A stretch of DNA of 64,000 nt. It comes from Aplysia californica. Lineage: Eukaryota. A model generated the notes under the pieces. It was given only the letters and a program-made list of their open reading frames with translations, had not been told where the DNA came from and made no database searches. Each line of letters begins with the position of its first letter. The stretch's first letter is position 1. Shown piece after piece: positions 46,819-64,000 of the stretch. Made by a program: the position numbers and the translations under genes. The stretch spans positions 1,997,225 to 2,061,224 of the forward strand of contig NW_004797304.1 of the NCBI RefSeq assembly GCF_000002075.1. The letters are read 5' to 3'.

Positions 46819-49800
46819 ACACACACACACACACACCAGCTGCGTACAAGTCAACAAGAGTTACAAAGTCCTGAATGTGATAAGAAGCATTTATACACCA
46901 TGCACGGTATTTATGGACATTTCCAAGAGCATGTGACGTAAACAGCTGTCAGTCAATCTTGACATGCACAGAAAACATTTGCTTTATCTCAAGGACTTTG
47001 CTTACAGGATTAGTCTTGTCTGACAAACCACAAGCCAGGGTCAAGGGTAACACAGAAGTATTGTTTTCAGAGAAAGAATTTGCTTCCAGTGATTTGCGAA
47101 AGACGGGGGGGTCTGGGAAGGGAGGATGGCAGCTTAGACTCACTGTAAACAAGCTGGAGCCAGCCATCTACATTTACACGTTCCAACATACAAAATGTTC
47201 CCTTAGTACTTACCACTTTTACAGGAAAGTCCATCCCAGTACGATCTACTTATAGGACCACACAGACATTTTTTAACAGAGTTCTTGTTTGCAACACACG
47301 CTAGTCCAGATCGACAAGGATCTGTGAGGCCAGCACAGTCTACTCCGTGAGCCAGTTCTAAAGAAGACAAGGAGAAAAAACAACCGGATACAACAACAAG
47401 GACACAAACAAAACACTGATTTCACAGAAATCTCATCATAAATATTTTCTACATACATTCTCACAAAGCAATGATTTCATTATACCAGCATCCCATCACT
47501 TTTTTAACACTGTGCCGTCACATCTCGCCGTTCGGCGATGTATACCATCCACTTTCTTTGGATTTTCCCCACAATGCCTTTGCATTTGATGGCAAGGGTT
47601 TTTACTAAGGCAAAGTGTTAAGGATACAGAAAAGATTGTCACATCAAGATCGAACATCTCTTGTCGTCCCCACAACCAGCGAGGATAGACACAATAGAAA
47701 AACGCTTCGAAACTGGCAGAGACATGGAACTGTTATACTCTAAAAAGATGATGAATTGTTCTTACAGAGAATCCTCAACACTGATGTCAGGCTCAGTCTT
47801 CAGATTTAAAACCAACCGAAACAACATTCCTCCCAGCCTGTCTCATCCAGTTTCATTCCTTTAAGTATTCCCAACTTTAACGACTTTTTGAGTCTCATTT
47901 CTCGTCCTATATCATTCCTTAAAGTGTTTCCAGCCTACATCACTCTCTGAGTCTCAATTCTCGTCCCACGCCTTCTTTCTATGATGAAAACCTGTGAGCG
48001 GTTTTGTCCTACCTAGCTGTGTGGCACAGAACAAACTCCTCATAAAACACGATAAGGCTATCTTAGAGGCAGGACCTTCAACTTCACGCTAATCGCTGAA
48101 GGGATCTCACCAGACAGAAGAAAAGACATGAAGACTTTCAAAACACCTCAGTCTCACCACGTGACTACAGCGACCCGGACTAAGGCCATTTTTATCACAC
48201 ACCAAACGGGAAATCAGGCTTACTCGCTCACCTCTTTAGCCTTAACAGCACAAAGTCTGCTTCGACATTCAAGGCACTTTGGAAATAGCAGTTTACAAGA
48301 GAGTGACAAACATACAAAAGAAGTAGAGGAAAATGACGATCGTAAGGATGAGGAAAGAAAAAGCAGCAGTTCCCCCTATGTTGTTCTGGCAAAGTATATA
48401 AGCGTGGCAATGATAAATCAGCCAATTTAAAATTCTACTGTGCTTAACAACATGTTAATATACCCCCTTTGACTTACGGAATGGTCTAAAGACACTTCAG
48501 TCTGTAGCACTGCCCTAGGGGGGAGGGGGGGAAGGCCATCTGTATCACACACCAGCGTACAGGTGTTCAGGGAATACGATACACTTTGTGGGGTTTTAAT
48601 AAGTAAAGAAAACAGAAGCTCTATCCTCTCCGTTCTTTGATGTGTTTAAATCAGTTCTCCGAGACCTCTCCCTTTCTCTTTAGGCCCTCAGCTTTTCGTT
48701 GGAAATCTTTAAAAGCAAGATCAAGAACATTTATTGTTTCTGAAAACACGCTCCAACAGTAGCATGTTCTTCATGTTTATTGTATTGGCTGGGTTGTGCA
48801 CAACATGGAACTCATTACGTAGACTGTGGGAAAGGTGAACCCTTCCACAGAGCATCAAAAGTAAAAACAACATTTAATTCTTTGTCCCCGACTGTAAGCA
48901 CGCACCAAGACTCACCCAACTCTCCGTGGTATCCAGCAACGGTCAGACCTAGTGGACATTGACAAATGACAGCAAAGATTTCCTTCTACAGGTGGGTGAC
49001 AGACTTAAGACACAGAACTACGAGTCCTTTCAAAGGTAGAGAGTGGCTATTGCTTAGACGTTTTGGGTACGTGTAGCACTGGAGCATAATTTAAACTGTG
49101 TCGATGAGTCAGCAAAATCCAATATTAATTATATGAACCTTTGACCTAGTTGTACTATTTTTAAAAATCCCCTAGCAGGCTGAACTAGGTCACTACGATC
49201 AGAAAAAAGAACAGATCACAACAGAAAGAATAGATATCAGTACATCAAGTTCAGAACCTGCAAGTCAGCAATGTATTTCACGTACCTGTGTAAAGAAAAG
49301 TGTCATGAATGCCGAACATTTCTTACAACATCGCCGCCTTCATCAAGTCCCAACGGACCACGGAGAGACAAAATGAACCAACCAAATGGGAAATAAAACT
49401 AGAACAAACATCACAGTAACATACAAAAAGTTTCTAACAGCAGTTTGTACATTCAATGATAATGATGTAAACAAACTGTCAACAACTTCCTCACACATGT
49501 TAAAGGACAACTTCCTCTCTCTCCGTCCTACTTACTTCGGGCACACTGGTTATTGCCAGTATGGTAGTCCGTGCTCAAACACTTGCACTTGGAGTTTAAA
49601 CAACGAAGCTGTCCATCACATGGGTTATCTGACACAGATGGACACTGTCCATCATAGCCGATTTCTGGAGGAAAACAAAAGAGGGACAATAAACATACTT
49701 GACAGTTCTGTTAATCTGACACAAAGATTGACCAATCACATTCTTTTGAGGATATAATATTTATTGTGTTAATTCTTTTATATGTCAGTATGGGTTTCCC

Positions 49801-52800: not shown

Positions 52801-55800
52801 TACATGTAATGAAATCTTAGATAGTCATACTTACTGTTCTTACATGTAATGAAATCTTAGATAGTCATACTTACTGTTCCTACACTGATTGCCTCCAAAA
52901 TAGTACTGGCTAGCTGGACACCGACACTTCTTTTCTCCACCAGAGGTCAAACACATAAGATTTCCATTACAACTGTAAGCAACGGTACAGCCACCTCCAT
53001 AGTTGATTTCTGGGGCAGGGTGAAATGGTGTTGCGTGGGGGACATAATAAAAAATAGAGTAGATAAGAATAGAATGATTACACACACACTAGACAAAATT
53101 GGTTACAGTCACCATTCACAAACAGCCAGGCTTATTGTAACTACATGGACAGTCCAACTAACTCCAGTGTTTAAATTTTCAATTACTGTACGTGTGGGTG
53201 TGTGGGTGTTGTATTTTTCTGTCTGTTCTGTAGATTTGATGTTTCTTTTTTGTAATGCTATATTTTAATTTGGTGTGAGCAATGTTAACATAGTGAGTTC
53301 TAGAGGCTCTTTGCTCTTTACAATGGAAGCCACAATGGGGGTGTCAATTTACAGCATGTCTTATTTTGTATCAGCGAACTCATTTTCTATAATTTTTATT
53401 TTACAGCGGTCCTATCCTATGCAAATACAGTAGTTCATCCACTTTGCATCCAACTTTGCAAGCAGGAAGATGTATATAGCGGACGTTATATTCCAAATTA
53501 GATCGAGCATAATAGAAAAGTATTTTATTCTTGACTGAGAAACAGTGAATGAGCATAAAGTGATGGAATGTAGCACTGGTGAGAATAAACAAAAGCCCCC
53601 AGCTCCTTTCATAGATGCATTTGCAGCAGCTGATATGGCACTAGATTCATCAGATGATGAGCTAGATTGAGTAAGATGTTTCTGATAGTGGCAGCATCGA
53701 TGAATTTAAGAGACAGGGGTGATTACATCAGCAAATAATAGTACCTTGAACTTGGGTTGCACGGAGAAGTAAGTGAAACCAGGTCAGATGTGCGGACGAA
53801 AATAGATTTCTAAAAACATTTTAGCAACAACTCAGAATGATTTTCCCTTCCTACCAATATCAGATATTGGCGAGAAGGGAGACGTGTATGGAAGTTACTA
53901 ACTGAACTCTTCCCTATCTTCTCTATAATACTCTTTTATTCAGTAACCCTAGCTCCTTGTTACACCAAGCCCCACATCCTCTGTTTTTTAGTTTAGCTTT
54001 AGTGAGAGTTTTACAGTACTTTCAACACAATTAGGCCATAGATGTGTCAACGATTACAGACGTTACAAGAGAGTAACGTACACACAAAAGGAGGAACAAT
54101 AAGGACGATGGATTTTTGAATGGAAACAAGGAGCAAACCACACCAGAGCACCGGCCATACACCCATAAAACACCCTCCATGTCCATATATGTATCTAAGT
54201 AATGCATCACAATGATGAGAAAGTGGAAACTTGCCAAAACATCAAAACCAGTTTTACTCACATCTACTCACATTTTGACCTCTACCTGTCTCACAGGGAC
54301 TTTTTTCATCCTTTCTCTTGGTTAAAATTGACGTCCTGTAGGATTATTTATTTGTGTCATGACCCCATGATATCAGGCGCTCCTCGACTTTTGAGAATAG
54401 GAAGCTACAGGTATAATCTTAAAGACTGTTCATTTGCCTTTCTTTTGATTAAAAAAAATATTCATCTCCCCTGCTTAAAAGTTAAGAGGTTGGTGACTGA
54501 AGGAGGTGCGGGTCGCCAGCTCTTACAAGAAAGTTTAGCGAGAAGATGGCTGCCAAACTCTCTGAAGGGATCTAACCAGACAGAACAAATACGAAAAAGA
54601 CTTTCCAAACATCTCTGTCTAAGCACGTGATGATACCTACTTTGACTAGGGCCATCTGTATCATACACCAGCGTAAAAGTGTTCAGGGAATACGATACAC
54701 TTTGGGGGGTTTTAATAAGTAAAGAAAACAGAGGCTCTATCCTCTCCGTTCTTTGATGTTTTTAAATCGAAACTTCGTAACTTCTCCCATTCCCTTTAGG
54801 CCATCAGCTTTTCATCGGAAATCTTTAAAAACAAGATCAATTACTGTTTCTGAAAACACACACAAACAGCGGTATTTTCTTCCTGTTTATTGTATTTGCT
54901 GGGTTGTGCACGACTTGGGACTCATTACGTAGACTGTGGGAAAAGTGAACACTTCCACAGAGCATCAAAAGTAAAAACAATTAAGACTTTGTCCGTGACT
55001 GTTTCCACGCACCAAGACTCACCCACCTCTCCATGACTATCCAGCAGCAGTCAGACCTACTGGACATTGACAAGTGACAGCAAAGATTTCCTTCTTCAGG
55101 TGGGTGACATACCTAAGACACAGAACTACGAGTCCTTTCAAAGGTAGAGTGTGGCTGTTGCTTAAAAGATTTGGGTATATGTCTGAAAACTGGAGCTTTA
55201 TTTAAACTGTGCTGATGAGTCAGCAAAATCCAATATTAATTATGAACCTTTGACCTAGTTGTACTATTTTTAAAATCCCCTAGCAGGCTGAACTAGGTCA
55301 CTACGATCAGAAAAAAGAACAGATCACAACAGAAAGAATAGATATCAGTACATCAAGTTCAGAACCTGCAAGTCAGCAATGTATGTTATATACCTGTGTA
55401 AGGAAAAGTGTCATGAATGCCGAACATCAATTACAACATCGCCGCCTTCATCAAGTCCCAACGGACCACGGACAGACAAAATGAACCAACCAAATGGGAA
55501 ATAAAACTAGAACAAACAACACAGTAACATACAAAAGGTTTCTAACAGCAGTTTGTACATTCAATGATAATGATGTAAACAAACTGTCAACAACTTCCTC
55601 ACACATGTTAAAGGACAACTTCCTCTCTCTCCGTCCTACTTACTTCGGGCACACTGGTTATTGCCAGTATGGTAGTCCGTGCTCAAACACTTGCACTTGG
55701 AGTTTAAACAACGAAGCTGTCCATCACATGGGTTATCTGACACAGATGGACACTGTCCATCATAGCCGATTTCTGGAGGAAAACAAAAGAGGGACAATAA

Positions 55801-58800
55801 ACATACTTGACAGTTCTGTTGACCTGACACAAAGATTGACCAATCACATTCTTTTGAGGATATAATATTTATTGTGTTAATTCTTTTATATGTCAGTATG
55901 GGTTTCCCCACCATATACCCCTCCCACTTATCCAAACTAAAAAAAACAAACAACTTTCACCATTTTTCCTTGTCCTCTCTTCAATTTTCTTTTATTAAAG
56001 ATCTCTTCACTCCTTGTGCCACCTAAAAACACATCCTCAATATCATTGCGGACACGTGTGTAAGTCACGCTAAACAATGAAGAAAAAGGGAAAATTGACC
56101 ATAATATCAAAACTTGCTTTGTTCACACCTACTCACTTTTTATCCTCCGCTTGTCTCAAAAGGACTCTTGTTCATCTCTCCTTTATGATTTTTTTTCCTT
56201 GTTGAAATTGAACACATACAGATTTCACCACTTTTTGAGGTTTTCAACTGAACTAGTCACCTAGTCTTCTACTGATATCTCACATTTCCCCTTCCTCCAT
56301 CTTTTTTCCACCAAGTCATATTATGACTTAAATAACACCTCCCCAGCCTTCCAAAGGCTCTTCTTTTGTTTTCTTCTACTTCTGCTCTGCCTCCAAATCT
56401 TTCTCAACATTCAACAGAATCCCGTTACTCAGGTTTTGAGCTAGCCCCCCCCCCCTCCTTACTATGCTTGTTATATGTGTGAAATGTGGTAAAATATGGT
56501 CCAGTAATAAGCGAGATAGCCTCCAGGTGTAGCCTCCCCCCCCCCCTCCCCCCATCTCCCCCACCGTATCCTACTTACTTGTGCCACACATGTGGTTGCC
56601 AGTGTAGTACTCCGTGTTAGAACACTTGCACCTGGAGTTGACATCACATAAAAGATCTCCAGCACATTGGTTCTCAGACCCTGGAGACCCCGATGTACAC
56701 TGTCCATCATAGCTGATTTCTGGAGGAAACCAAAACAAGGACAATAAACACTTGATATGTCTGTGAAATTGTCACAAAAATGAACCAATAACATTCTTTT
56801 GGGGGGAAAATATCTAGTGTGTTCATTGTATATTTCTACTATTATCAGATTTTTAAAAGGCCCATTTCCCTTTAATAAACTATCAAAAGACAGGCAGTTT
56901 TACACAGCTCTTCCTTACCATCTCTATAATACTCTTTTATTCAGTATCTCCTAGCTCCTTGTTACACCAAGCCCCACATCCTCTGTTTTTTAGTTTAGCT
57001 TAAGTGAGAGTTTTACAGTACTTTCAACACAATTAGGCCATAGATGTGTCAACGATTACAGACGTTACAAGAGAGTAACGTACACACAAAAGGAGGAACA
57101 ATAAGGACGATGGATTTTTGAAAGGAAACAAGGAGCAAACCACACCAGAGCACCGGCCACACACCCATAAAACACCCTCCATGTCCATATATGTATCTAA
57201 GTAATGCATCACAATGATGAGAAAGTGGAAACTGGNNNNNNNNNNNNNNNNNNNNNNNNNNNNNNNNNNNNNNNNNNNNNNNNNNNNNNNNNNNNNNNNN
57301 NNNNNNNNNNNNNNNNNNNNNNNNNNNNNNNNNNNCCCATCTCCCCCACCGTATCCTACTTACTTGTGCCACACATGTGGTTGCCAGTGTAGTACTCCGT
57401 GTTAGAACACTTGCACCTGGAGTTGACATCACATAAAAGATCTCCAGCACATTGGTTCTCAGACCCTGGAGACCCCGATGTACACTGTCCATCATAGCTG
57501 ATTTCTGGAGGAAACCAAAACAAGGACAATAAACACTTGATATGTCTGTGAAATTGTCACAAAAATGAACCAATAACATTCTTTTGGGGGGAAAATATCT
57601 AGTGTGTTCATTGTATATTTCTACTATTATCAGATTTTTAAAAGGCCCATTTCCCTTTAATAAACTATCAAAAGACAGGCAGTTTTACACAGCTCTTCCT
57701 TACCATCTCTATAATACTCTTTTATTCAGTATCTCCTAGCTCCTTGTTACACCAAGCCCCACATCCTCCATTTTTTAGTTTAGCTTAAGTGAGAGTTTTA
57801 CAGTACTTTCAACACAATTAGGCCATAGATGTGTCAACGATTACAGACGTTACAAGAGAGTAACGTACACACAACAGGAGGAACAATAAGAACGATGGAT
57901 TTTTGAAAGGAAACAAGGAGCAAACCACACCAGAGCACCGGCCACACACCCATAAAACACCCTCCATGTCCATATATGTATCTAAGTAATGCATCACAAT
58001 GATGAGAAAGTGGAAACTGGCCAAAACATCAAAACCACCTATACTTACATCTACTCACCTTTTGACCTCTACTTGTCTCACAGGGACTTTTTTTCATCCT
58101 TTCTTTTGGTTAAAATTGACCTCCTGTACGTTTAACTATTTGTGTCATGACCCCATGATAGCAGGTGCTCCTCAGCTTTTGAGAATAGGAAGCTAGAGGT
58201 ATAATCTCAAAGCCAATTCATTTGCCTTTCTTTTGATTAAACAAAATACTCATCTCCACCTCTTGAAAGTCAAGAGGTTTGTGACTGAAGGAGGTGCGGG
58301 TCGCCAGCTCTTACAAGAAAGTTTAGCGAGAAGATGGCTGCCAAACATTTTATCTCTGAAGGGATCTAACCAGACAGAAAAAAAACCAAAAAGACTTTCC
58401 AAACATCTCAGTCTAAGCACGTGATGATACCAACTTTGACTAGGGCCATCTGTATCACACACCAGCGTACAAGTGTTCAGGGAATACGATACACTTTGTG
58501 GGGTTTTAATAAGTAAAGAAAACAGAAGCTCTATCCTCTCCGTTCTTTGATGTTTTTAAATCAGTTCTCCGAGACCTCTCCCTTTCTCTTTAGGCCTTCA
58601 GATTTTCATTGGAAATCTTTAAAAGCAAGAACATTTATTGTTTCTGAAAACACGCACTAACAGTAGCATGTTCTTCCTGTTTATTGTATTGACAAGGTCG
58701 TGCACCACTTGGGACTCATTACGTAGACTGTGGGAAAAGTGAACACTTCCACAGAGCATCAAAAGTTTTTAAAAAAAACAAGTAAGACTTTGTTCCTGAC

Positions 58801-61800
58801 TGTAAGCACGCACCAAGACTCACCCACCTCTCGGTGGCTAATCAGCAACGGTCGGAAGGAAGAAAGTAACGATTATCTGGAAAGGAAAGACGTCGCCATA
58901 ATCAGATAGCCACCAGAACAACCAGTATACATACATTGCAGGCTTTGGTGCTGGGGGAAACAGAGTACTTATGGACCTGACCGGTGTGCAATGACGTGTT
59001 GCCCAGGACAGGTAATACAGGTAATGAAAGTGCTCGTCCCAAGACAAATATGTGGGAGATTTACTCAGCCTTAGCAACATCGCCGAGAGTGGGGAGGGGA
59101 GGGGTAGGGCAAGAAAGTCCTGTTGACCTCCAAAGCTGACACACCTTGGCTTATCTAGCAGTCGTCCTCAAAACTAATAGAAACCTGATGTAGAACTACG
59201 TGGCATTGAAGTTAATCAGGTCCATCCAAATATCTCTGAAAGCTAACATTACTTTCGCGGAACAGAAGATGACACATACAACACAAACACCGCTACATCT
59301 AATAGAATCGTAGTCATACTTACTGTCCCTACATGTAATGAAATCTTAGATAGTCATACTTACTGTTCTTACATGTAATGAAATCTTAGACAGCCATACT
59401 TACTGTTCCTAATTGTAATGAAATCTTAGATAGTCATACTTACTGTTCCTACATGTAATGAAATCTTAGATAGTCATACTTACTGTTCTTACATGTAATG
59501 AAATCTTAGATAGTCATACTTACTGTTCCTACACTGATTGCTGCCAAAATAGTACTGGCTAGCTGGACACAGACACTTCTTTTCTCCACCAGAGGTCAAA
59601 CACTGAAGATCATCATTACAACTGTCAGCAACGGTACAGCCACCTCCATAGTTGATTTCTGGGGCAGGGTGAAATGGTGTTGCGTGGGAGACAAAATCAA
59701 AAATACAGTAGATAAGAATAGAAAGATTATACACACACTAGACAAAATTGGTTATAGTCACCATTCACAAACAGCCAGGCTTATTGTAATTACATGGACA
59801 GTCCAACTAACTCCAGTGTTTAAATTATCCATTACTGTACGTGTGGGTGTGTGGGTGTCGTATTTTTCTGTCTGTTCTGTAGATTTGATGTTCCTTTTTG
59901 TAATGCTATATTTTAATTTGGTGTGAGCAATGTTAACATAGTGAGTTCTAGAGGCTCTTTGCTCTTTACAATGGAAGCCACAATGGGGGTGTCAATTTAC
60001 AGCATGTCTTATTTGTATCAGCGAACTCATTTTCTATAATTTTTATTTTACAGCGGTCCTATCCTATGCAAATACAGTAGTTCATCCACTTTATATCCAA
60101 CTTTGCAAGCAGGAAGATGTATATAGCGGACGTTGTATTCCAAATTAGATCGAGCATAATAGAAAAGTATTTTATTCTTGACTGAGAAACAGTGAATGAG
60201 CATAAAGTGATGGAATGTAGCACTGGTGAGAATAAATTTAAAAAACCAGCTCGTTTCATAGATGCATTTGCAGCAGCTGATAAGGCACTAGATTCATCAG
60301 ATGATGCCTACCATCATGAGCTAGATTGACTCAGGTGTTTCTGAAAGTGACAGCATCGATGAATTTAAGAGACAGAGGTGACTACATCAGCAGTTCATGG
60401 CAACCTGAACTTGGGTAGAACGGAGAAGCAAGTGAAACCAGGTCAGATGTGCGGACGAAAATAGATTTTTAAAAACATTGTAGCAATAACTCAGAATGAT
60501 TTTCCATTCCTACCTAAATCAGATATTGATGAGAAGGGAGACGTGTATGAAAAGTGACTAACCGAACTCTTCCCTATCTTCTCTATAATACTCTTTTATT
60601 CAGTATCTCCTAGCGCCTTGTTACGCCAGGCCCAACATCCTCTGTTTTTTAGTTTAGCTTAAGTGAGAGTTTTACAGGACTTTCAACACAATTAGGCCAT
60701 AGATGTGTCAACGATTACAGGTGTTACAAGAGAGTAACATACACAAAAAGGAGGAACAATAAGGACGATGGATGTTTGATAGGAAACAAGGAGCAAACCA
60801 CACCAGAGCACCGACCACACACCCCTAAAACACCCTCCACGTCCATGTATGTATCTAAGTAATGCATCACAATGATGAGAAAGTGGAAACTTGCCAAAAC
60901 ATCAAAACCAGTTTTACTGACATCTACTCCCATTCTGACCTCTACCTGTCTTACAGGGACTTTTTTTTCATCCTTTCTCTTGGTTAAAATTGACGTCCTG
61001 TAGGTTAAACTATTTGTGTCCTGACCCCATGATATCAGGCGCTCCTCATCTTTTGAGAATAGGAAGCTAGAGGTATAATCTTAAAGACTGTTCATTTGCC
61101 TTTCTTTTGATTTAAAAAAATATTCATCTCCACTGCTTAAAAGTCAAGAGGTTTGTGACTGAAGGAGGTGCGGGTCGCCAGCTCTTACAAGAAAGTTTAA
61201 CGAGAAGATGGCTTCCAAACTGTTTATCTCTGAAGGGGTCTAACCAGACAGAACAAAAACCAAAAAGACTTTCCAGACATCTCGGTCTAAGCACGTGATG
61301 ATACCAACTTTGACTAGGGCCATCTGTATCACACACCAGCGTACAAGTGTTCAGGGAATACGATACACTTCGTGGGGTTTTAATAAGTAAAGAAAACAGA
61401 GGCTCTATCCTCTCCGTTCTTTGATGTGTTTAAATCAGCTCTTTGAGACTTCTCCCTTTCTCTTTAGGCCTTCGGCTTTTCATTGGAAATCTTTAAAAAC
61501 AAGAACATTTATTGTTTCTGAAAACACGCACTAACAGTAACATGTTCTTCCTGTTTATTGTATTGGCTGGGTTGTGCACCACTTGGGACTCATTACGTAG
61601 ACTGTGGGAAAAGTGAACCCTTCCACACAGCATCAAAAGTAAAAAAAACAACAACAAGTAAGACTTTGTCCCTGACTGTAAGCACGCGCCAAGACTCACC
61701 CACCTCTCGGTGGCTAATCAGCAACGGTCGGAAGGAAGAAAGGAACGATTATCTGGAAAGGGAAGACGTCGCCATAATCAGATAGCCACCGGAACAACCA

Positions 61801-62477
61801 GTATGGATACATTGCGGGCTTTGGTGCTTGGGGGAACTGAGCACTTATGGACCTGTCCGGTGTGCAATGACGTTGTTGCTCAGGACAGGTAATACAGGTA
61901 ATGAAAGTGCTCGTCCCAAGACAAATATGTGGGAGATTTACTCAGCCTTAGCAACGTCGCCGAGAGTGGGGGGGGGGGGGGAAGGCATGGAGTCCTGTTG
62001 ACCTCCACAGCAGACTGCCCTTGGCTTATCTAGCAGATGTCCTCAAAACTAATAGAAACCTGACGTAGAACTACGTGGCATGGAAGTTAATCAGGTCCGT
62101 CCAAATCTCTCTGAAAGCTAACAGAAGATGACACATACAACACAGACACCACTACATCTAATAAAATCGTAGTCATACTTACTGATCCTACATGTAATGA
62201 AATCTTAGACAGTCATACTTACTGTTCCTACATGTAATGAAATCTTAGATAGTCATAATTACTGTTCCTACATGTAATGAAATCTTAGACAGTCATACTT
62301 ACTGTTCCTACATGTAATGAAATCTTAGATAGTCATACTTACTGTTCTTACACTGATTGTTGCCAAAATGGTACTGGCTAGCTGGACACAGACACTTCTT
62401 TTCTCCACCAGAGGTCAAACACTGAAGATTTCCATTACAACTGTCAACAACGGTACAGCCACCTCCATAGTTGATTT
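12917..62477 (-). CDS. Multi-exon receptor-type protein tyrosine (pseudo)phosphatase, R3/PTP10D-like: EB/EGF-like modules + FN3 + TM + single PTP domain; 5' end outside window
   Basis: 32 exons with canonical AG/GT sites whose phases chain without frameshift or stop (4424 coding nt in window). PTP motifs [37 protein letters not shown]; FN3 W/Y patterns; one TM followed by RRRR. Confidence 0.92.
13733..13877 (-). CDS. Exon: PTP P-loop and Q-loop
   Basis: 145 nt, phase 2-0; (S)[13 protein letters not shown]...[12 protein letters not shown]. Confidence 0.95.
14459..14610 (-). CDS. Exon: PTP WPD-loop position and start of signature motif
   Basis: 152 nt, phase 0-2; [14 protein letters not shown]...GPFVVHC(S). 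Confidence 0.93.
14769..17150 (-). mobile_element. 5'-truncated, frameshifted I/Nimb-like non-LTR retrotransposon (RT + RNase H) in an intron of the PTP gene
   Basis: [35 protein letters not shown]; RNase [24 protein letters not shown]; 3' hairpin then (TAC)n tail at ~14750. Confidence 0.92.
17150..17550 (+). mobile_element. 3' fragment of a second RNase H-bearing non-LTR element, opposite orientation
   Basis: [16 protein letters not shown], followed by an AAGT-rich short repeat tail. Confidence 0.75.
18040..18413 (-). pseudogene. Possible decayed THAP-domain relic of a DNA transposon
   Basis: Frameshifted pieces [23 protein letters not shown] and [11 protein letters not shown] resemble THAP CxxxxC..FP, CxxHF and LK..AVP. 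Confidence 0.35.
18938..19063 (-). CDS. Exon: PTP motif 7
   Basis: 126 nt, phase 0-0; GKGKSYWP...YGDIVV...YTIRKFQI. Confidence 0.93.
20135..20790 (-). mobile_element. Decayed RNase H-bearing non-LTR fragment
   Basis: LILADSQ...[19 protein letters not shown]. Confidence 0.75.
20893..21027 (-). CDS. Exon: PTP motifs 4-6
   Basis: 135 nt, phase 0-0; [45 protein letters not shown]. Confidence 0.95.
21674..21744 (-). CDS. Exon: PTP motifs 2-3 position (degenerate)
   Basis: 71 nt, phase 1-0; [24 protein letters not shown], compared with consensus DxxRVxL...DYINAxYI. Confidence 0.8.
22500..23105 (+). mobile_element. RTE 3' fragment whose terminal 40 bp is tandemly amplified about 8 times
   Basis: [15 protein letters not shown]...[14 protein letters not shown]; unit aaagtgtttgt(c/t)cgtggcctata(c/t)cctg(g/a)tgcagggtgag. 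A single-unit relative lies at 31045-31172. Confidence 0.85.
23205..23265 (-). CDS. Exon: PTP domain start (KNRY-loop position, degenerate)
   Basis: ctcttcag|GAC...T|gtaagt, 61 nt, phase 0-1; [20 protein letters not shown]. Confidence 0.8.
23336..23670 (-). mobile_element. SINE family 1 copy (head lost in gap)
   Basis: Collinear similarity to 1385-1700. Confidence 0.8.
24579..24660 (-). CDS. Exon: pre-PTP wedge region
   Basis: 82 nt, phase 2-0; [28 protein letters not shown], matching the RP....F....DS..F..EFE pattern of RPTPs. Confidence 0.88.
26347..26406 (-). CDS. Exon: cytoplasmic juxtamembrane
   Basis: ctcaaag|G...AG|gtgaga, 60 nt, phase 2-2; [19 protein letters not shown]. Confidence 0.72.
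28012..28135 (-). CDS. Exon: transmembrane helix
   Basis: 124 nt, phase 1-2; [26 protein letters not shown] followed by RRRRQK. Confidence 0.92.
29057..29142 (-). CDS. Exon: membrane-proximal ectodomain part 4
   Basis: Phase 2-1; [11 protein letters not shown]. The exon could end at 29057 (gttggt) or 29063 (gtaacg); both are in phase. Confidence 0.8.
29722..30222 (-). mobile_element. SINE family 1 copy, near full length
   Basis: Collinear similarity to 1385-1884, including the tRNA-like head. Confidence 0.85.
30588..30693 (-). CDS. Exon: membrane-proximal ectodomain part 3
   Basis: 106 nt, phase 1-2; [24 protein letters not shown], the FxVG..C..CNGPL motif of the R3 RPTP juxtamembrane domain. 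Confidence 0.88.
31045..31172 (+). mobile_element. Short RTE 3' end copy
   Basis: Matches 22700-23105 with one terminal unit and a (GAT)n tail. Confidence 0.75.
31303..31419 (-). CDS. Exon: membrane-proximal ectodomain part 2 (RRKR furin-type site)
   Basis: 117 nt, phase 1-1; [34 protein letters not shown]. Confidence 0.85.
32328..32500. repeat. 41-bp tandem repeat (~4 units)
   Basis: gacaggaaagaattcttttcccaaaacttttcacttttcaa. Confidence 0.85.
32510..32695 (-). CDS. Exon: membrane-proximal ectodomain part 1
   Basis: 186 nt, phase 1-1; acceptor follows a C16 tract; donor G|gtgagc. Confidence 0.8.
33631..33697 (-). CDS. Exon: FN3 domain 5, part 3
   Basis: ttttttcag|GTG...C|gtaagt, 67 nt; completes YTFK-VMASNG. 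Confidence 0.8.
33833..34080. mobile_element. piggyBac-like MITE (~245 bp)
   Basis: Ends ttaaccctatc... / ...ggata(c/g)ggtt(g/a)a; a second copy at 3295-3532 ends cggatagggttaa. Confidence 0.65.
34085..34560 (-). mobile_element. Decayed non-LTR 3' end (zinc-knuckle-like)
   Basis: LNSYLNRI...[19 protein letters not shown]. Confidence 0.7.
34779..34874 (-). CDS. Exon: FN3 domain 5, part 2
   Basis: 96 nt, phase 0-0; [12 protein letters not shown]...TNYTFK. Confidence 0.8.
35280..35428 (-). CDS. Exon: FN3 domain 5, part 1
   Basis: 149 nt, phase 1-0; PGPATAL...[16 protein letters not shown]. Confidence 0.85.
36240..36374 (-). CDS. Exon: FN3 domain 4, C-terminal half
   Basis: 135 nt, phase 1-1; [19 protein letters not shown]. 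Confidence 0.85.
37076..37423. repeat. Compound minisatellite: ~26-bp core plus variable (CAA)n
   Basis: atagacaaagtctacatatcactggac occurs 5 times, separated by (caa)n runs. Confidence 0.9.
37468..37653 (-). CDS. Exon: FN3 domain 4, N-terminal half
   Basis: 186 nt, phase 1-1; [18 protein letters not shown]. Confidence 0.85.
39064..39265 (-). CDS. Exon: FN3 domain 3, C-terminal half
   Basis: 202 nt, phase 0-1; [16 protein letters not shown]. Confidence 0.9.
40685..41012 (-). mobile_element. SINE family 2 copy
   Basis: Reverse-complement match to 2010-2330; a further degraded piece lies at ~32190-32310. Confidence 0.8.
41984..42153 (-). CDS. Exon: FN3 domain 3, N-terminal half
   Basis: 170 nt, phase 1-0; APGRV...[20 protein letters not shown]. 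Confidence 0.9.
42245..42750. repeat. MITE-like element with internal 33-bp tandem array (~11 units)
   Basis: Unit gtttgtacaggtgattgtcttatacaggtggtc; related partial copy at 11660-11810. Confidence 0.8.
43480..43755 (-). CDS. Exon: FN3-like domain 2
   Basis: tttccag|AG...G|gtatga, 276 nt; PAQPG...SYLVTV...[16 protein letters not shown]. Confidence 0.88.
44070..44352. repeat. Minisatellite, 47-bp and ~32-bp unit variants
   Basis: gtactgtcccaactaccacagcccagatgtccacatgtatacataaa and shortened forms. Confidence 0.85.
44630..44688. mobile_element. Tiny TSD-flanked insertion (second identical copy)
   Basis: Flanked by ggaactaacga at 44619-44629 and 44689-44699. Confidence 0.75.
44993..45152 (-). 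repeat. Dispersed repeat family 4 (variant hairpin tail ggcacttgc...aagtgcc)
   Basis: Copies at ~31460-31700, 41480-41640, 45525-45680 and in the shared intron block of the 48-64 kb array. Confidence 0.75.
45899..46204 (-). CDS. Exon: FN3-like domain 1
   Basis: ccctacag|TT...ACA A|gtaagt, 306 nt; IDFSW...YQV...GLRPGVKY. Confidence 0.88.
47214..47357 (-). CDS. Exon: EB/EGF-like module type D (single copy, adjacent to FN3 region)
   Basis: ttctttag|AA...AGT G|gtaagt, 144 nt; [47 protein letters not shown]. Confidence 0.87.
49536..49664 (-). CDS. Exon: EB/EGF-like module type B (copy B1)
   Basis: 129 nt, phase 1-1; nucleotide-identical to B2. Confidence 0.87.
50362..50499 (-). CDS. Exon: EB/EGF-like module type C (copy C1)
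   Basis: 138 nt, phase 1-1; [45 protein letters not shown]. Confidence 0.87.
52302..52884. repeat. 40-bp minisatellite of exon end + splice donor (14 extra units)
   Basis: tagtcatacttactgttcctacatgtaatgaaatcttaga; 5 units at 59311-59510 and 4 at 62170-62329. Confidence 0.92.
52875..53009 (-). CDS. Exon: EB/EGF-like module type A (copy A1)
   Basis: 135 nt, phase 1-1; [44 protein letters not shown]. Confidence 0.88.
55644..55772 (-). CDS. Exon: EB/EGF-like module type B (copy B2)
   Basis: 129 nt, phase 1-1; [42 protein letters not shown]. Confidence 0.87.
56579..56719 (-). CDS. Exon: EB/EGF-like module type C (copy C2)
   Basis: 141 nt, phase 1-1, same peptide as 57364-57504. Confidence 0.8.
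57364..57504 (-). CDS. Exon: EB/EGF-like module type C (copy C3; possible assembly duplicate of C2)
   Basis: cctccag|AA...ACA A|gtaagt, 141 nt; [46 protein letters not shown]; adjacent to a 100-N gap. Confidence 0.65.
59524..59658 (-). CDS. Exon: EB/EGF-like module type A (copy A2)
   Basis: 135 nt, phase 1-1; [44 protein letters not shown]. Confidence 0.88.
62343..62477 (-). CDS. Exon: EB/EGF-like module type A (copy A3)
   Basis: ccccag|AA...AAC A|gtaagt, 135 nt, phase 1-1; [44 protein letters not shown], 6 Cys. Confidence 0.88.
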
Positions 62478-64000
62478 CTGGGGCAGGGTGAAATGGTGTT
62501 GCGTGGGGGACAAAATAAAAAATACAGTAGATAAAAATAGAAAGATTACACACACACTAGACAAAAATTGACTACATTCACCATTCACAAACAGCCTGGC
62601 GTATTGTAACTACATGGACAGTCCAACTAACTCCAGTGTTTAAATTATCCATTACTGTATGTGTGGGTGTGTGGGTGTTGTGTTTTTCTGTCTGTTCTGT
62701 AGATTTCATGTTTCTTTTTTGTAATGCTATATTTTAATTTGGTGTGAGCAATGTTAACATAGTGAGTTCTAGAGGCTCTTTGCTCTTTACAATGGAAGCC
62801 ACAATGGGGGTGTCAATTTACAGCATGTCTTATTTTGTATCAGCGAACTCATTTTCTATAATTTTTATTTTACAGCGGTCCTATCCTATGCAAATACAGT
62901 AGTTCATCCACTTTGCATCCAACTTTGCAAGCAGGAAGATGTATATAGCGGACGTTATATTCCAAATTAGATCGAGCATAATAGAAAAGTATTTTATTCT
63001 TGACTGAGAAACAGTGAATGAGCATAAAGTGATGGAATGTAGCACTGGTGAGAATAAACAAAAGCCCCCAGCTCCTTTCATAGATGCATTTGCAGCAGCT
63101 GATATGGCACTAGATTCAACAGATGATGCGTACCATCATGAGCTAGATTGACTCATGTATTTCAAAAAGTGACATCATCGGTGAATTTAAGAGACAGAGG
63201 TGACTACATCAGCAGTTCATGGCACCCTGAACTTGGGTAGAACGGAAAAGCAAATGAAACCAGGTCAGATGTGCGGACAAAGAATGATTTTCACTTCCTA
63301 CCAAAATCAGATATTGATGAGAAGGGAGACGTGTATGAAAAGTTACTAGCTGAACTCTTCCCTATCTTCTCTATAATACTCTTTTATTCAGTATCTCCTA
63401 GCTCCTTGTCACACCAAGCCCCACATCCTCCGTTTTTGAGTTTAGCTTTAGTTAGAGTTTTACAGTACTTTCAACACAATTAGGCCATAGATGTGTCAAC
63501 GATTACAGGTGTTACAAGAGAGTAACATACACAAAAAGGAGGAACAATAAGGACGATGATTGTTTGATAGGAAACAAGGAGCAAACCACACCAGAGCACC
63601 GACCACACACCCATAAAACACCCTCCATGTCCATGTATGTATCTAAGTAATGCATCAAAATGATGAGAAAGTGGAAACTGGCCAAAGCATTAAAACCATC
63701 TTTACTTACATCTACTCACCGTTTGACCTCTACCTGTCTCACAGGGACTTTTTTTCATCCTTTCTTTTGTTTAAAATTGACCTCTTGTAGGTTTAACTAT
63801 TTGTGTCATGACCCCATGATATCAGGCGCTCCTCAGCTTTTGAGAATAGGAAGCTGGAGGTATAATCTCAAAGCCTCTTCATTTACCTTTCTTTTGATTA
63901 AAAAAAATATTCATCTCCACTGCTTAAAAGTCAAGAGATTTGTGACTGAAGGAGGTGCGGGTCGCCAGCTCTTACAAGAAAGTTTAGCGAGAAGATGGCT

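What the first reader, a model, noticed from the sequence alone, without database searches (positions are those of the whole stretch)
48535..64000. A shared ~1.1-kb intron block acts as a switch point joining different exon neighbours
The same block (from ctctataatactcttttattcagt to gactcaccca.ctct) occurs at ~50700-51805, 53920-55030, 57705-58832, 60580-61708, 63369-end and partly at 48535-48924. Its flanks are swapped between copies. In transcript direction it links post-A to pre-A sequence (A->A), post-A to pre-C (A->C, twice), post-B to pre-A (B->A) and post-B to unique DNA (B->D). This mosaic is what unequal crossover within a common homology block would produce, effectively a recombination hub for exon shuffling. 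The block contains a copy of dispersed repeat family 4, which may have seeded it.
Basis: partly seen in the sequence, partly recalled or inferred. Interest (0 to 1): 0.7.

Follow-up and report, generated by a model that had tools for sequence, protein, structure and literature searches.

The report
Shuffled exon array in sea-slug receptor
A sea-slug gene for a predicted cell-surface receptor carries a tandem array of small cysteine-rich exons whose introns share a 1.1-kb block; one exon junction likely arose by a crossover inside that block, but the neighbouring DNA is just as mosaic, so this is likely ordinary tandem-array turnover rather than a dedicated shuffling hub.

Summary
The block is real: five copies plus a partial one at the stated places, 92-96% alike, with flanks as described. 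It lies in introns of a minus-strand gene: signal peptide, six-cysteine EB-like exons (all phase 1-1), FN3 exons, transmembrane exon, tyrosine-phosphatase exon. Closest homologues are unnamed Aplysia proteins.

The copies are mosaic (p about 0.0002-0.0008), and the B->A copy switches ancestry inside the block (about 54640-54760; p=0.0006), as unequal crossover predicts.

It is not a special hub. The flanks are equally alike (93-95%) and equally discordant (8.5 versus 8.9 sites per kb). The block is itself a fusion of two older introns. Two of the 'swapped' edges are transposon insertions. 'Unique' D is the block's own continuation. The family-4 repeat lies at no junction. The gene also looks mosaic between paralogues where no block exists.

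Side findings: one exon copy differs by 27% while its introns differ by 4%, and a 40-bp minisatellite repeats a splice donor. Verdict: new member of a known kind, interest 0.3.

The parts
63355..64000 (-). Block copy H6 (X4->X3 intron; runs on beyond the window)
62478..63354 (-). Pre-X intron part (pX); the 655 bp next to the block are found only in the four X units, apart from one weak 165-bp hit
62343..62477 (-).
62151..62342 (-). 40-bp minisatellite made of repeats of the X splice donor
61731..61902 (+). 172-bp end of a young dispersed repeat (94-96% to 36 listed copies elsewhere); sets the post-X edge of the block
60567..61708 (-). Block copy H5 (X3->X2); internal fusion point at about 61221/61222; family-4 repeat at about 60635-60830
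59524..59658 (-). Exon X2
57693..58832 (-). Block copy H4 (X2->Y2)
57364..57504 (-).
56551..57235 (-). Near-identical repeat of Y2, pre-Y and the block's 3' end across a 100-N run (4 differences in 685 bp); likely an unmerged assembly overlap
55644..55772 (-).
53907..55030 (-). Block copy H2 (Z2->X1), chimeric; ancestry switch at about 54640-54760
52875..53009 (-). Exon X1; contigs of two guessed-RNA runs of one sample match exactly these bounds
52284..52874 (-). 40-bp donor-site minisatellite, about 14 donor motifs
50687..51805 (-). Block copy H1 (X1->Y1)
50362..50499 (-). Exon Y1, 138 bp
49536..49664 (-). Exon Z1, identical to Z2
48534..48929 (-). h0: first 391 bp of the block, in the last intron of the array (Z1->W)
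48202..48533 (.). 330-bp dispersed repeat with a 20-bp near-duplicate on either side; cuts h0 off from D
47358..48204 (-). D: rest of the terminal intron; its first 113 bp continue the block
47214..47357 (-). Exon W, last Cys module; one copy in each of 5 loci found
45899..46204 (-). First FN3 exon
28012..28135 (-). Predicted transmembrane exon
20893..21010 (-). Tyrosine-phosphatase domain exon (PF00102, E 1.3e-7, above the cut-off)

Best explanation
The block is a piece of intron carried along in a tandem exon-intron array of a predicted receptor tyrosine phosphatase gene; it likely began as the junction of an old tandem duplication, and it likely takes part in unequal crossover and gene conversion at about the same rate as the rest of the repeat unit. 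Shown: its transcript-5' 487 bp match the intron before exon W, and its 3' 655 bp match the introns before Y-type exons; the fusion is also present in the C30 paralogue. Inferred: a second junction joined the block to pre-X DNA and made the 2.8-kb [X exon + block] unit, now in runs of three and one. A repeat insertion with a deletion of about 0.5 kb made the post-X edge. At least one unequal crossover inside the block's 5' half put Z before X and duplicated the [X..Y Z] set. Short conversion tracts keep the copies patchy. All exons are phase 1-1 with lengths divisible by three, so any such event would keep the frame.
For: Chimeric origin: terminal-intron similarity ends near block position 484-487, Y-type similarity starts at 488, and C30 spans it. 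Mosaic copies: neighbouring informative sites are incompatible in 0.17-0.39 of pairs against 0.51 by permutation, p 0.0002-0.0008. H2 switch: outgroup-like at 8 of 21 diagnostic sites in the 5' part and 2 of 50 in the 3' part, p=0.0006; none of the other 5 full copies shows this (p 0.09-1.0); the trees agree. No hub: identity 94.2% in the block versus 93.1% and 94.6% in the flanks; discordant sites 20/2242 versus 11/1301, p=1.0; both exceed simulated homoplasy (p<=0.005) and both hold significant tracts. Repeat-made edges. Paralogue mosaic without the block: W is closest to C273a (91.5% versus 80-83%), the next exon to C273b (92% versus 77-78%). The pre-Y|block junction is present in contigs of two other samples.
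Against: Only four X units are available, so the rate comparison has little power, and H5 and H6 enter both block sets. The block is the commonest long shared intron stretch in the array (six copies, versus four for the X flanks and two for the Y/Z introns), and only its 5' half with the adjoining post-Z stretch can join unlike exons, so in that limited sense it is the switch point. h0 carries the window-type state at 7 of 9 sites and shares a tract with H4 (97.4%), which shows exchange between copies with unlike flanks. The H2 signal could instead reflect H2 escaping homogenisation. The order of events has no rooted test. The exon order rests on one assembly with N runs; no long reads were available.
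Confidence: 0.72

Rival explanations
1. The block is a true recombination hub that drives new exon orders more often than its length predicts.
For: Mosaic copies; H2 switch. With paralogues, up to all six combinations of upstream type (post-X, post-Z) and downstream type (D, pre-Y, pre-X) occur or are implied, which would need two crossovers. Duplication or deletion junctions in C30 and C154 also fall in or just past the block.
Against: The flanks are as discordant and as alike. Two of the six combinations are only inferred (a deletion in C30, an N run in C273a). Any duplication that ends before W must break in this intron. The gene looks mosaic at introns without the block.
Confidence: 0.15
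2. The block is a mobile element that inserted several times into this gene's introns.
For: It recurs between unlike flanks and holds a high-copy repeat.
Against: Outside the family-4 core, the strong matches lie only beside related exons, apart from one weak 130-bp hit. Both halves continue into ordinary intron homology. No matching target duplications are visible at its ends.
Confidence: 0.02
3. The order is a misassembly of collapsed repeats or of two haplotypes.
For: A 100-N run with a 99.4% duplicate on both sides. A C154 exon appears in a protein model that continues with a C273 exon, which hints at misplaced pieces in this family.
Against: Units differ by 4-8%, far more than the 0.6% duplicate. 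Contigs from two other samples cover all 30 bins and hold the pre-Y|block junction; in run X5 unit-specific contigs have depth 29-36 and a shared pre-X contig 114 (contig depth is only a hint).
Confidence: 0.08

Closest known systems
Argiope MaSp2 spidroin genes with repeated, homogenised introns (PMC9779670; passages read)
   Same: Iterated exon-intron units, higher-order units with alternating intron types, proposed unequal crossing over through shared introns, intergenic conversion.
   Different: There the introns average 97.6% identity and the exons are homogenised. Here the copies are 92-96% alike, part of one intron is shared between unlike exon types, and one exon has diverged strongly.
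Brown algal ROCO LRR exon arrays (PMC11378527; passages read)
   Same: One module per same-phase exon, intragenic tandem duplication and shuffling, diversifying selection, candidate recognition receptors.
   Different: Different modules and phase (72-bp phase-2 LRR versus 129-144-bp phase-1 six-Cys exons); the passages seen describe no shared intron block.
Biomphalaria clusters of single-pass receptor genes, PTC1/PTC2/LG5R (PMC13712769; passages read)
   Same: Gastropod multi-copy single-pass receptors, some with EGF-like, FN3 or phosphatase-like domains, structurally unstable.
   Different: No homology was tested, the domain sets differ between clusters, and there is no immune evidence for this gene.
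Non-allelic homologous recombination and symmetric phase 1-1 exon duplication (textbook; recalled, no call)
   Same: Shared sequence permits unequal crossover; same-phase exons keep the frame.
   Different: Nothing essential.

Membership tests
Tandem exon-intron array under unequal crossover and conversion | Repeated units that include introns | tested here: met
Tandem exon-intron array under unequal crossover and conversion | Frame-preserving symmetric exons | tested here: met
   129-144 bp, phase 1-1, AG/GT ends; Y->Z joint in contigs
Tandem exon-intron array under unequal crossover and conversion | Mosaic ancestry among copies | tested here: met
Tandem exon-intron array under unequal crossover and conversion | Copy number or order varies between individuals | not testable with these tools
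   No long-read or raw DNA run among the 24 listed
Recombination hotspot or hub | Exchange signal higher inside than in the flanks | tested here: not met
   20/2242 versus 11/1301 discordant sites, p=1.0; low power
Recombination hotspot or hub | At least one exon-order change with its breakpoint inside | tested here: met
   H2, p=0.0006
Repeat-seeded duplication (Alu-Alu type) | Repeat copy at the junctions | tested here: not met
   Family 4 at block positions 879-1046; junctions at 487/488 and 1142
Transposable element | Full-length copies at unrelated loci | tested here: not met
   (40 of 8248 candidates scored)
Receptor-type tyrosine phosphatase | Signal peptide, FN3, one transmembrane stretch, PTP domain in order on one strand | tested here: met
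   (exon-level matches; no full transcript)
Receptor-type tyrosine phosphatase | Catalytic HCxxGxxR motif | tested here: inconclusive
   Not found by pattern in window 1-30000; it may be split by an intron, under N or degenerate
EB module (PF01683) | Score above the Pfam cut-off | tested here: not met
   13.9-16.2 bits versus 24.3 in 3 of the 6 modules scanned; the other 3 gave other weak families. 'EB-like' only.

The most novel reading that the evidence does not exclude
These genes form a sea-slug receptor family with a hypervariable ectodomain: shared intron pieces let modules be re-ordered and swapped within and between paralogues, selection drives single modules apart (X4), and exon order is polymorphic among animals, giving an immune-like recognition repertoire wired to a phosphatase.
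Probability: 0.25. Interest if true: 0.6.

Novelty: new member of a known kind. Interest (0 to 1): 0.3.

Why it matters
As found, it is a clear worked example of how a duplication junction creates shared intron DNA that later lets unlike exons be re-joined. The mechanism is textbook. The family has at least five W-bearing loci, its three closest proteins are named 'uncharacterized', and my searches found no paper on it. If order polymorphism and selection on single modules were confirmed, it would be a tractable model of fast receptor diversification in a gastropod.

Tried and rejected
RNA raw reads X21-X23 on 52860-56900 covered only dispersed repeats, with no exon depth; this says nothing about expression in other tissues. 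No holder is on record as RNA. No X->X, X->Y, Z->X or Z->Y joint appeared in the rows shown for 8 runs; one search hid 26 joint rows. Summed contig depth was not used as copy number. The origin of the distal pre-X DNA was not found. An exon was sought at the old X-like donor site beyond the window (C34:~2067070); none was found, and a deletion joint to the intron after module T is implied. Per-window trees of the block were mostly unresolved (1 starred branch of 8 in the 5' tree, none in the two 3' trees). dN>dS for X4 versus X3 is not significant on its own (33/103 versus 4/29, p=0.06). Earlier-findings look-ups returned nothing. Six paper searches found no paper on this locus; three papers were read as passages, the rest were seen as listings only, and no supplements were opened. 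No structure prediction was run.

Full report
Setting. The window is G000:C34:1997225-2061224 in a 927-Mb eukaryotic assembly. The minus strand holds a gene with, in order, a likely signal-peptide exon about 25 kb beyond the window, six-cysteine exons, FN3 exons, a transmembrane exon and a tyrosine-phosphatase exon. The three proteins found with the first FN3 exon are uncharacterized Aplysia californica proteins at 60-85% identity, so the host is very likely that sea slug or a close relative (inference). The modules match Pfam EB or EGF only below the cut-offs.

Observation. The block H is confirmed. In transcript order the array reads U .. H7 X4 H6 X3 H5 X2 H4 Y2 [Y2'] Z2 H2 X1 H1 Y1 Z1 h0 W; U, H7 and X4 lie beyond the window. 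Contigs of guessed-RNA runs show the Y->Z joint and match the X exon bounds exactly. Y2' sits in a 685-bp stretch repeated with 4 differences across 100 N. It is probably an unmerged overlap: in run X5 the Y2-type contig has depth 35.2 against 29.2 for the other Y type (a hint only). The N cannot be read, so a real duplication is not excluded.

What the block is made of. Mapping the parts onto seven paralogous stretches and an eighth gives an older layout U, T, S, Y-type, X-type, W. Block positions 1-487 (transcript direction) match the intron before W: C273a runs from post-exon DNA through H1-483 into D and W. Positions 488-1142 match introns before Y-type exons (about 70% to C154). The change is abrupt at 487/488, window 61221/61222 in H5, and C30 carries the same fusion at 88%. 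H is therefore best read as an old duplication junction (inference). Family 4 lies at positions 879-1046, and the homologous C154 intron aligns without it, so it is a passenger. The post-X edge is a 172-bp end of a young dispersed repeat, 23 bp past the block; C273a has about 0.5 kb more DNA there. Its short tandem tail suggests a LINE end (recalled, not tested). The h0 edge is a 330-bp dispersed repeat between 20-bp near-duplicates, after which block homology resumes. Only the H|pre-X edge looks like a new junction peculiar to this gene.

Recombination inside the block. Among 48 biallelic informative sites in six copies, half of all pairs are incompatible but neighbours much less so (p=0.0002; 39 thinned sites, p 0.0002-0.0008). 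A 160-bp H5-H7 tract is significant (p=0.0085). H2, the Z->X copy, is outgroup-like at 8 of 21 diagnostic sites in its 5' part and at 2 of 50 in its 3' part (p=0.0006), with the switch between positions 272 and 395, about window 54640-54760. The other five full copies show no switch. An alternative is that H2 alone escaped later homogenisation.

No sign of a hub. Across the four X units the block is 94.2% identical, post-X 93.1% and pre-X 94.6%. Sites that conflict with the majority tree number 20 in 2242 block columns and 11 in 1301 flank columns (p=1.0). Both exceed simulated homoplasy (means 1.1-3.7; p<=0.005), and the flanks hold tracts with p 0.0005-0.005, some of which may be helped by local misalignment. 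Power is low, and two copies enter both block sets. The window's four link types force no crossover by themselves. With paralogues, the missing Z->Y link is implied in C30 by a deletion from inside Z to H429, and X->D is implied in C273a, where the exon would lie under N; if both hold, two crossovers are needed. The gene also looks mosaic away from the block: W is nearest C273a (91.5%) and the next exon nearest C273b (92.2%).

Model. Shown: part homologies, edges, mosaicism, the H2 switch. Inferred: (1) a duplication fuses the terminal intron to a pre-Y intron; (2) a second junction makes the [X + H] unit, trimmed by a repeat insertion; (3) unequal crossover anywhere in that unit changes the X count; (4) a crossover in the block's 5' half or just upstream of it duplicates the X-Y-Z set; (5) conversion scrambles the copies. 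The block matters because it is shared between unlike exons, not because it recombines faster.

Assembly. Contigs from two samples other than the best holder cover all 30 bins of 52860-56900 and contain the pre-Y|H joint. They cannot phase a 1.1-kb block. No long reads were listed.

Comparison. Closest are the repeated homogenised introns of Argiope MaSp2 (PMC9779670, passages) and the one-module-per-exon ROCO arrays (PMC11378527, passages). Biomphalaria receptor clusters are a loose functional parallel (PMC13712769, passages). Searches found nothing on this locus.

Side results. X4 differs from X3 at 37 of 135 exon bases but at 57 of 1320 flanking intron bases (p about 1e-16); about 33 of the changes are replacements and all six cysteines are kept. 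No closer donor was found. Conversely, Z differs from its C30 copy at 3 of 129 bases while the flanks differ by 11% (p=0.0006).

Verdict. Observation confirmed, interpretation partly supported; new member of a known kind; interest 0.3.

Noticed in passing
L001:1152-1286 (C34:2062376-2062510, just beyond the window): Exon X4 differs from X1-X3 by 26-28%, mostly replacements (dN about 0.4, dS 0.14-0.18), while its introns differ by about 4%; either selection on this module or conversion from an unseen donor.
   Followed up: partly
window 52284-52874, 59293-59523, 62151-62342: The 40-bp minisatellite after each X exon repeats the exon's last bases and its splice donor (14, 6, 4 and 5 donor motifs in X1-X4). 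Use of a later donor would meet an in-frame stop. The contigs seen end at the first donor.
   Followed up: partly
window 49536-49664, 55644-55772 and C30:1816698-1816826: Z1 and Z2 are identical and differ from the C30 copy at 3 of 129 bases while the flanks differ by 8-14%; exon conversion between loci or strong constraint.
   Followed up: partly
window 45899-47357: Adjacent exons have different nearest paralogues (W: C273a; first FN3: C273b), which suggests exchange between genes.
   Followed up: partly
window 56551-58020: A 685-bp duplicate across a 100-N run: overlap artefact, short duplication or hidden larger unit.
   Followed up: partly
L001:5750-6010: Two donor-type 40-bp units with no exon before them; the DNA upstream matches the intron after module T in paralogues, which implies a deletion of several modules.
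   Followed up: partly
C154:212440-212571 and C273:2621-2764: Protein P0002 joins a C154 exon to a C273 W exon that lies next to a 25-kb N run; the C154 array may belong in that gap or be a very recent copy.
   Followed up: no
C30:1819080-1819110: A deletion joins the first 31 bases of a Z exon to block position 429.
   Followed up: partly
window 53250-53600 (middle of pre-X): About 390 alignment columns hold only 16 variable sites among four copies, fewer than the rest of the intron.
   Followed up: no
L001:7010-7960: A decayed stretch that looks like a LINE reverse-transcriptase end (recalled resemblance, not tested).
   Followed up: no
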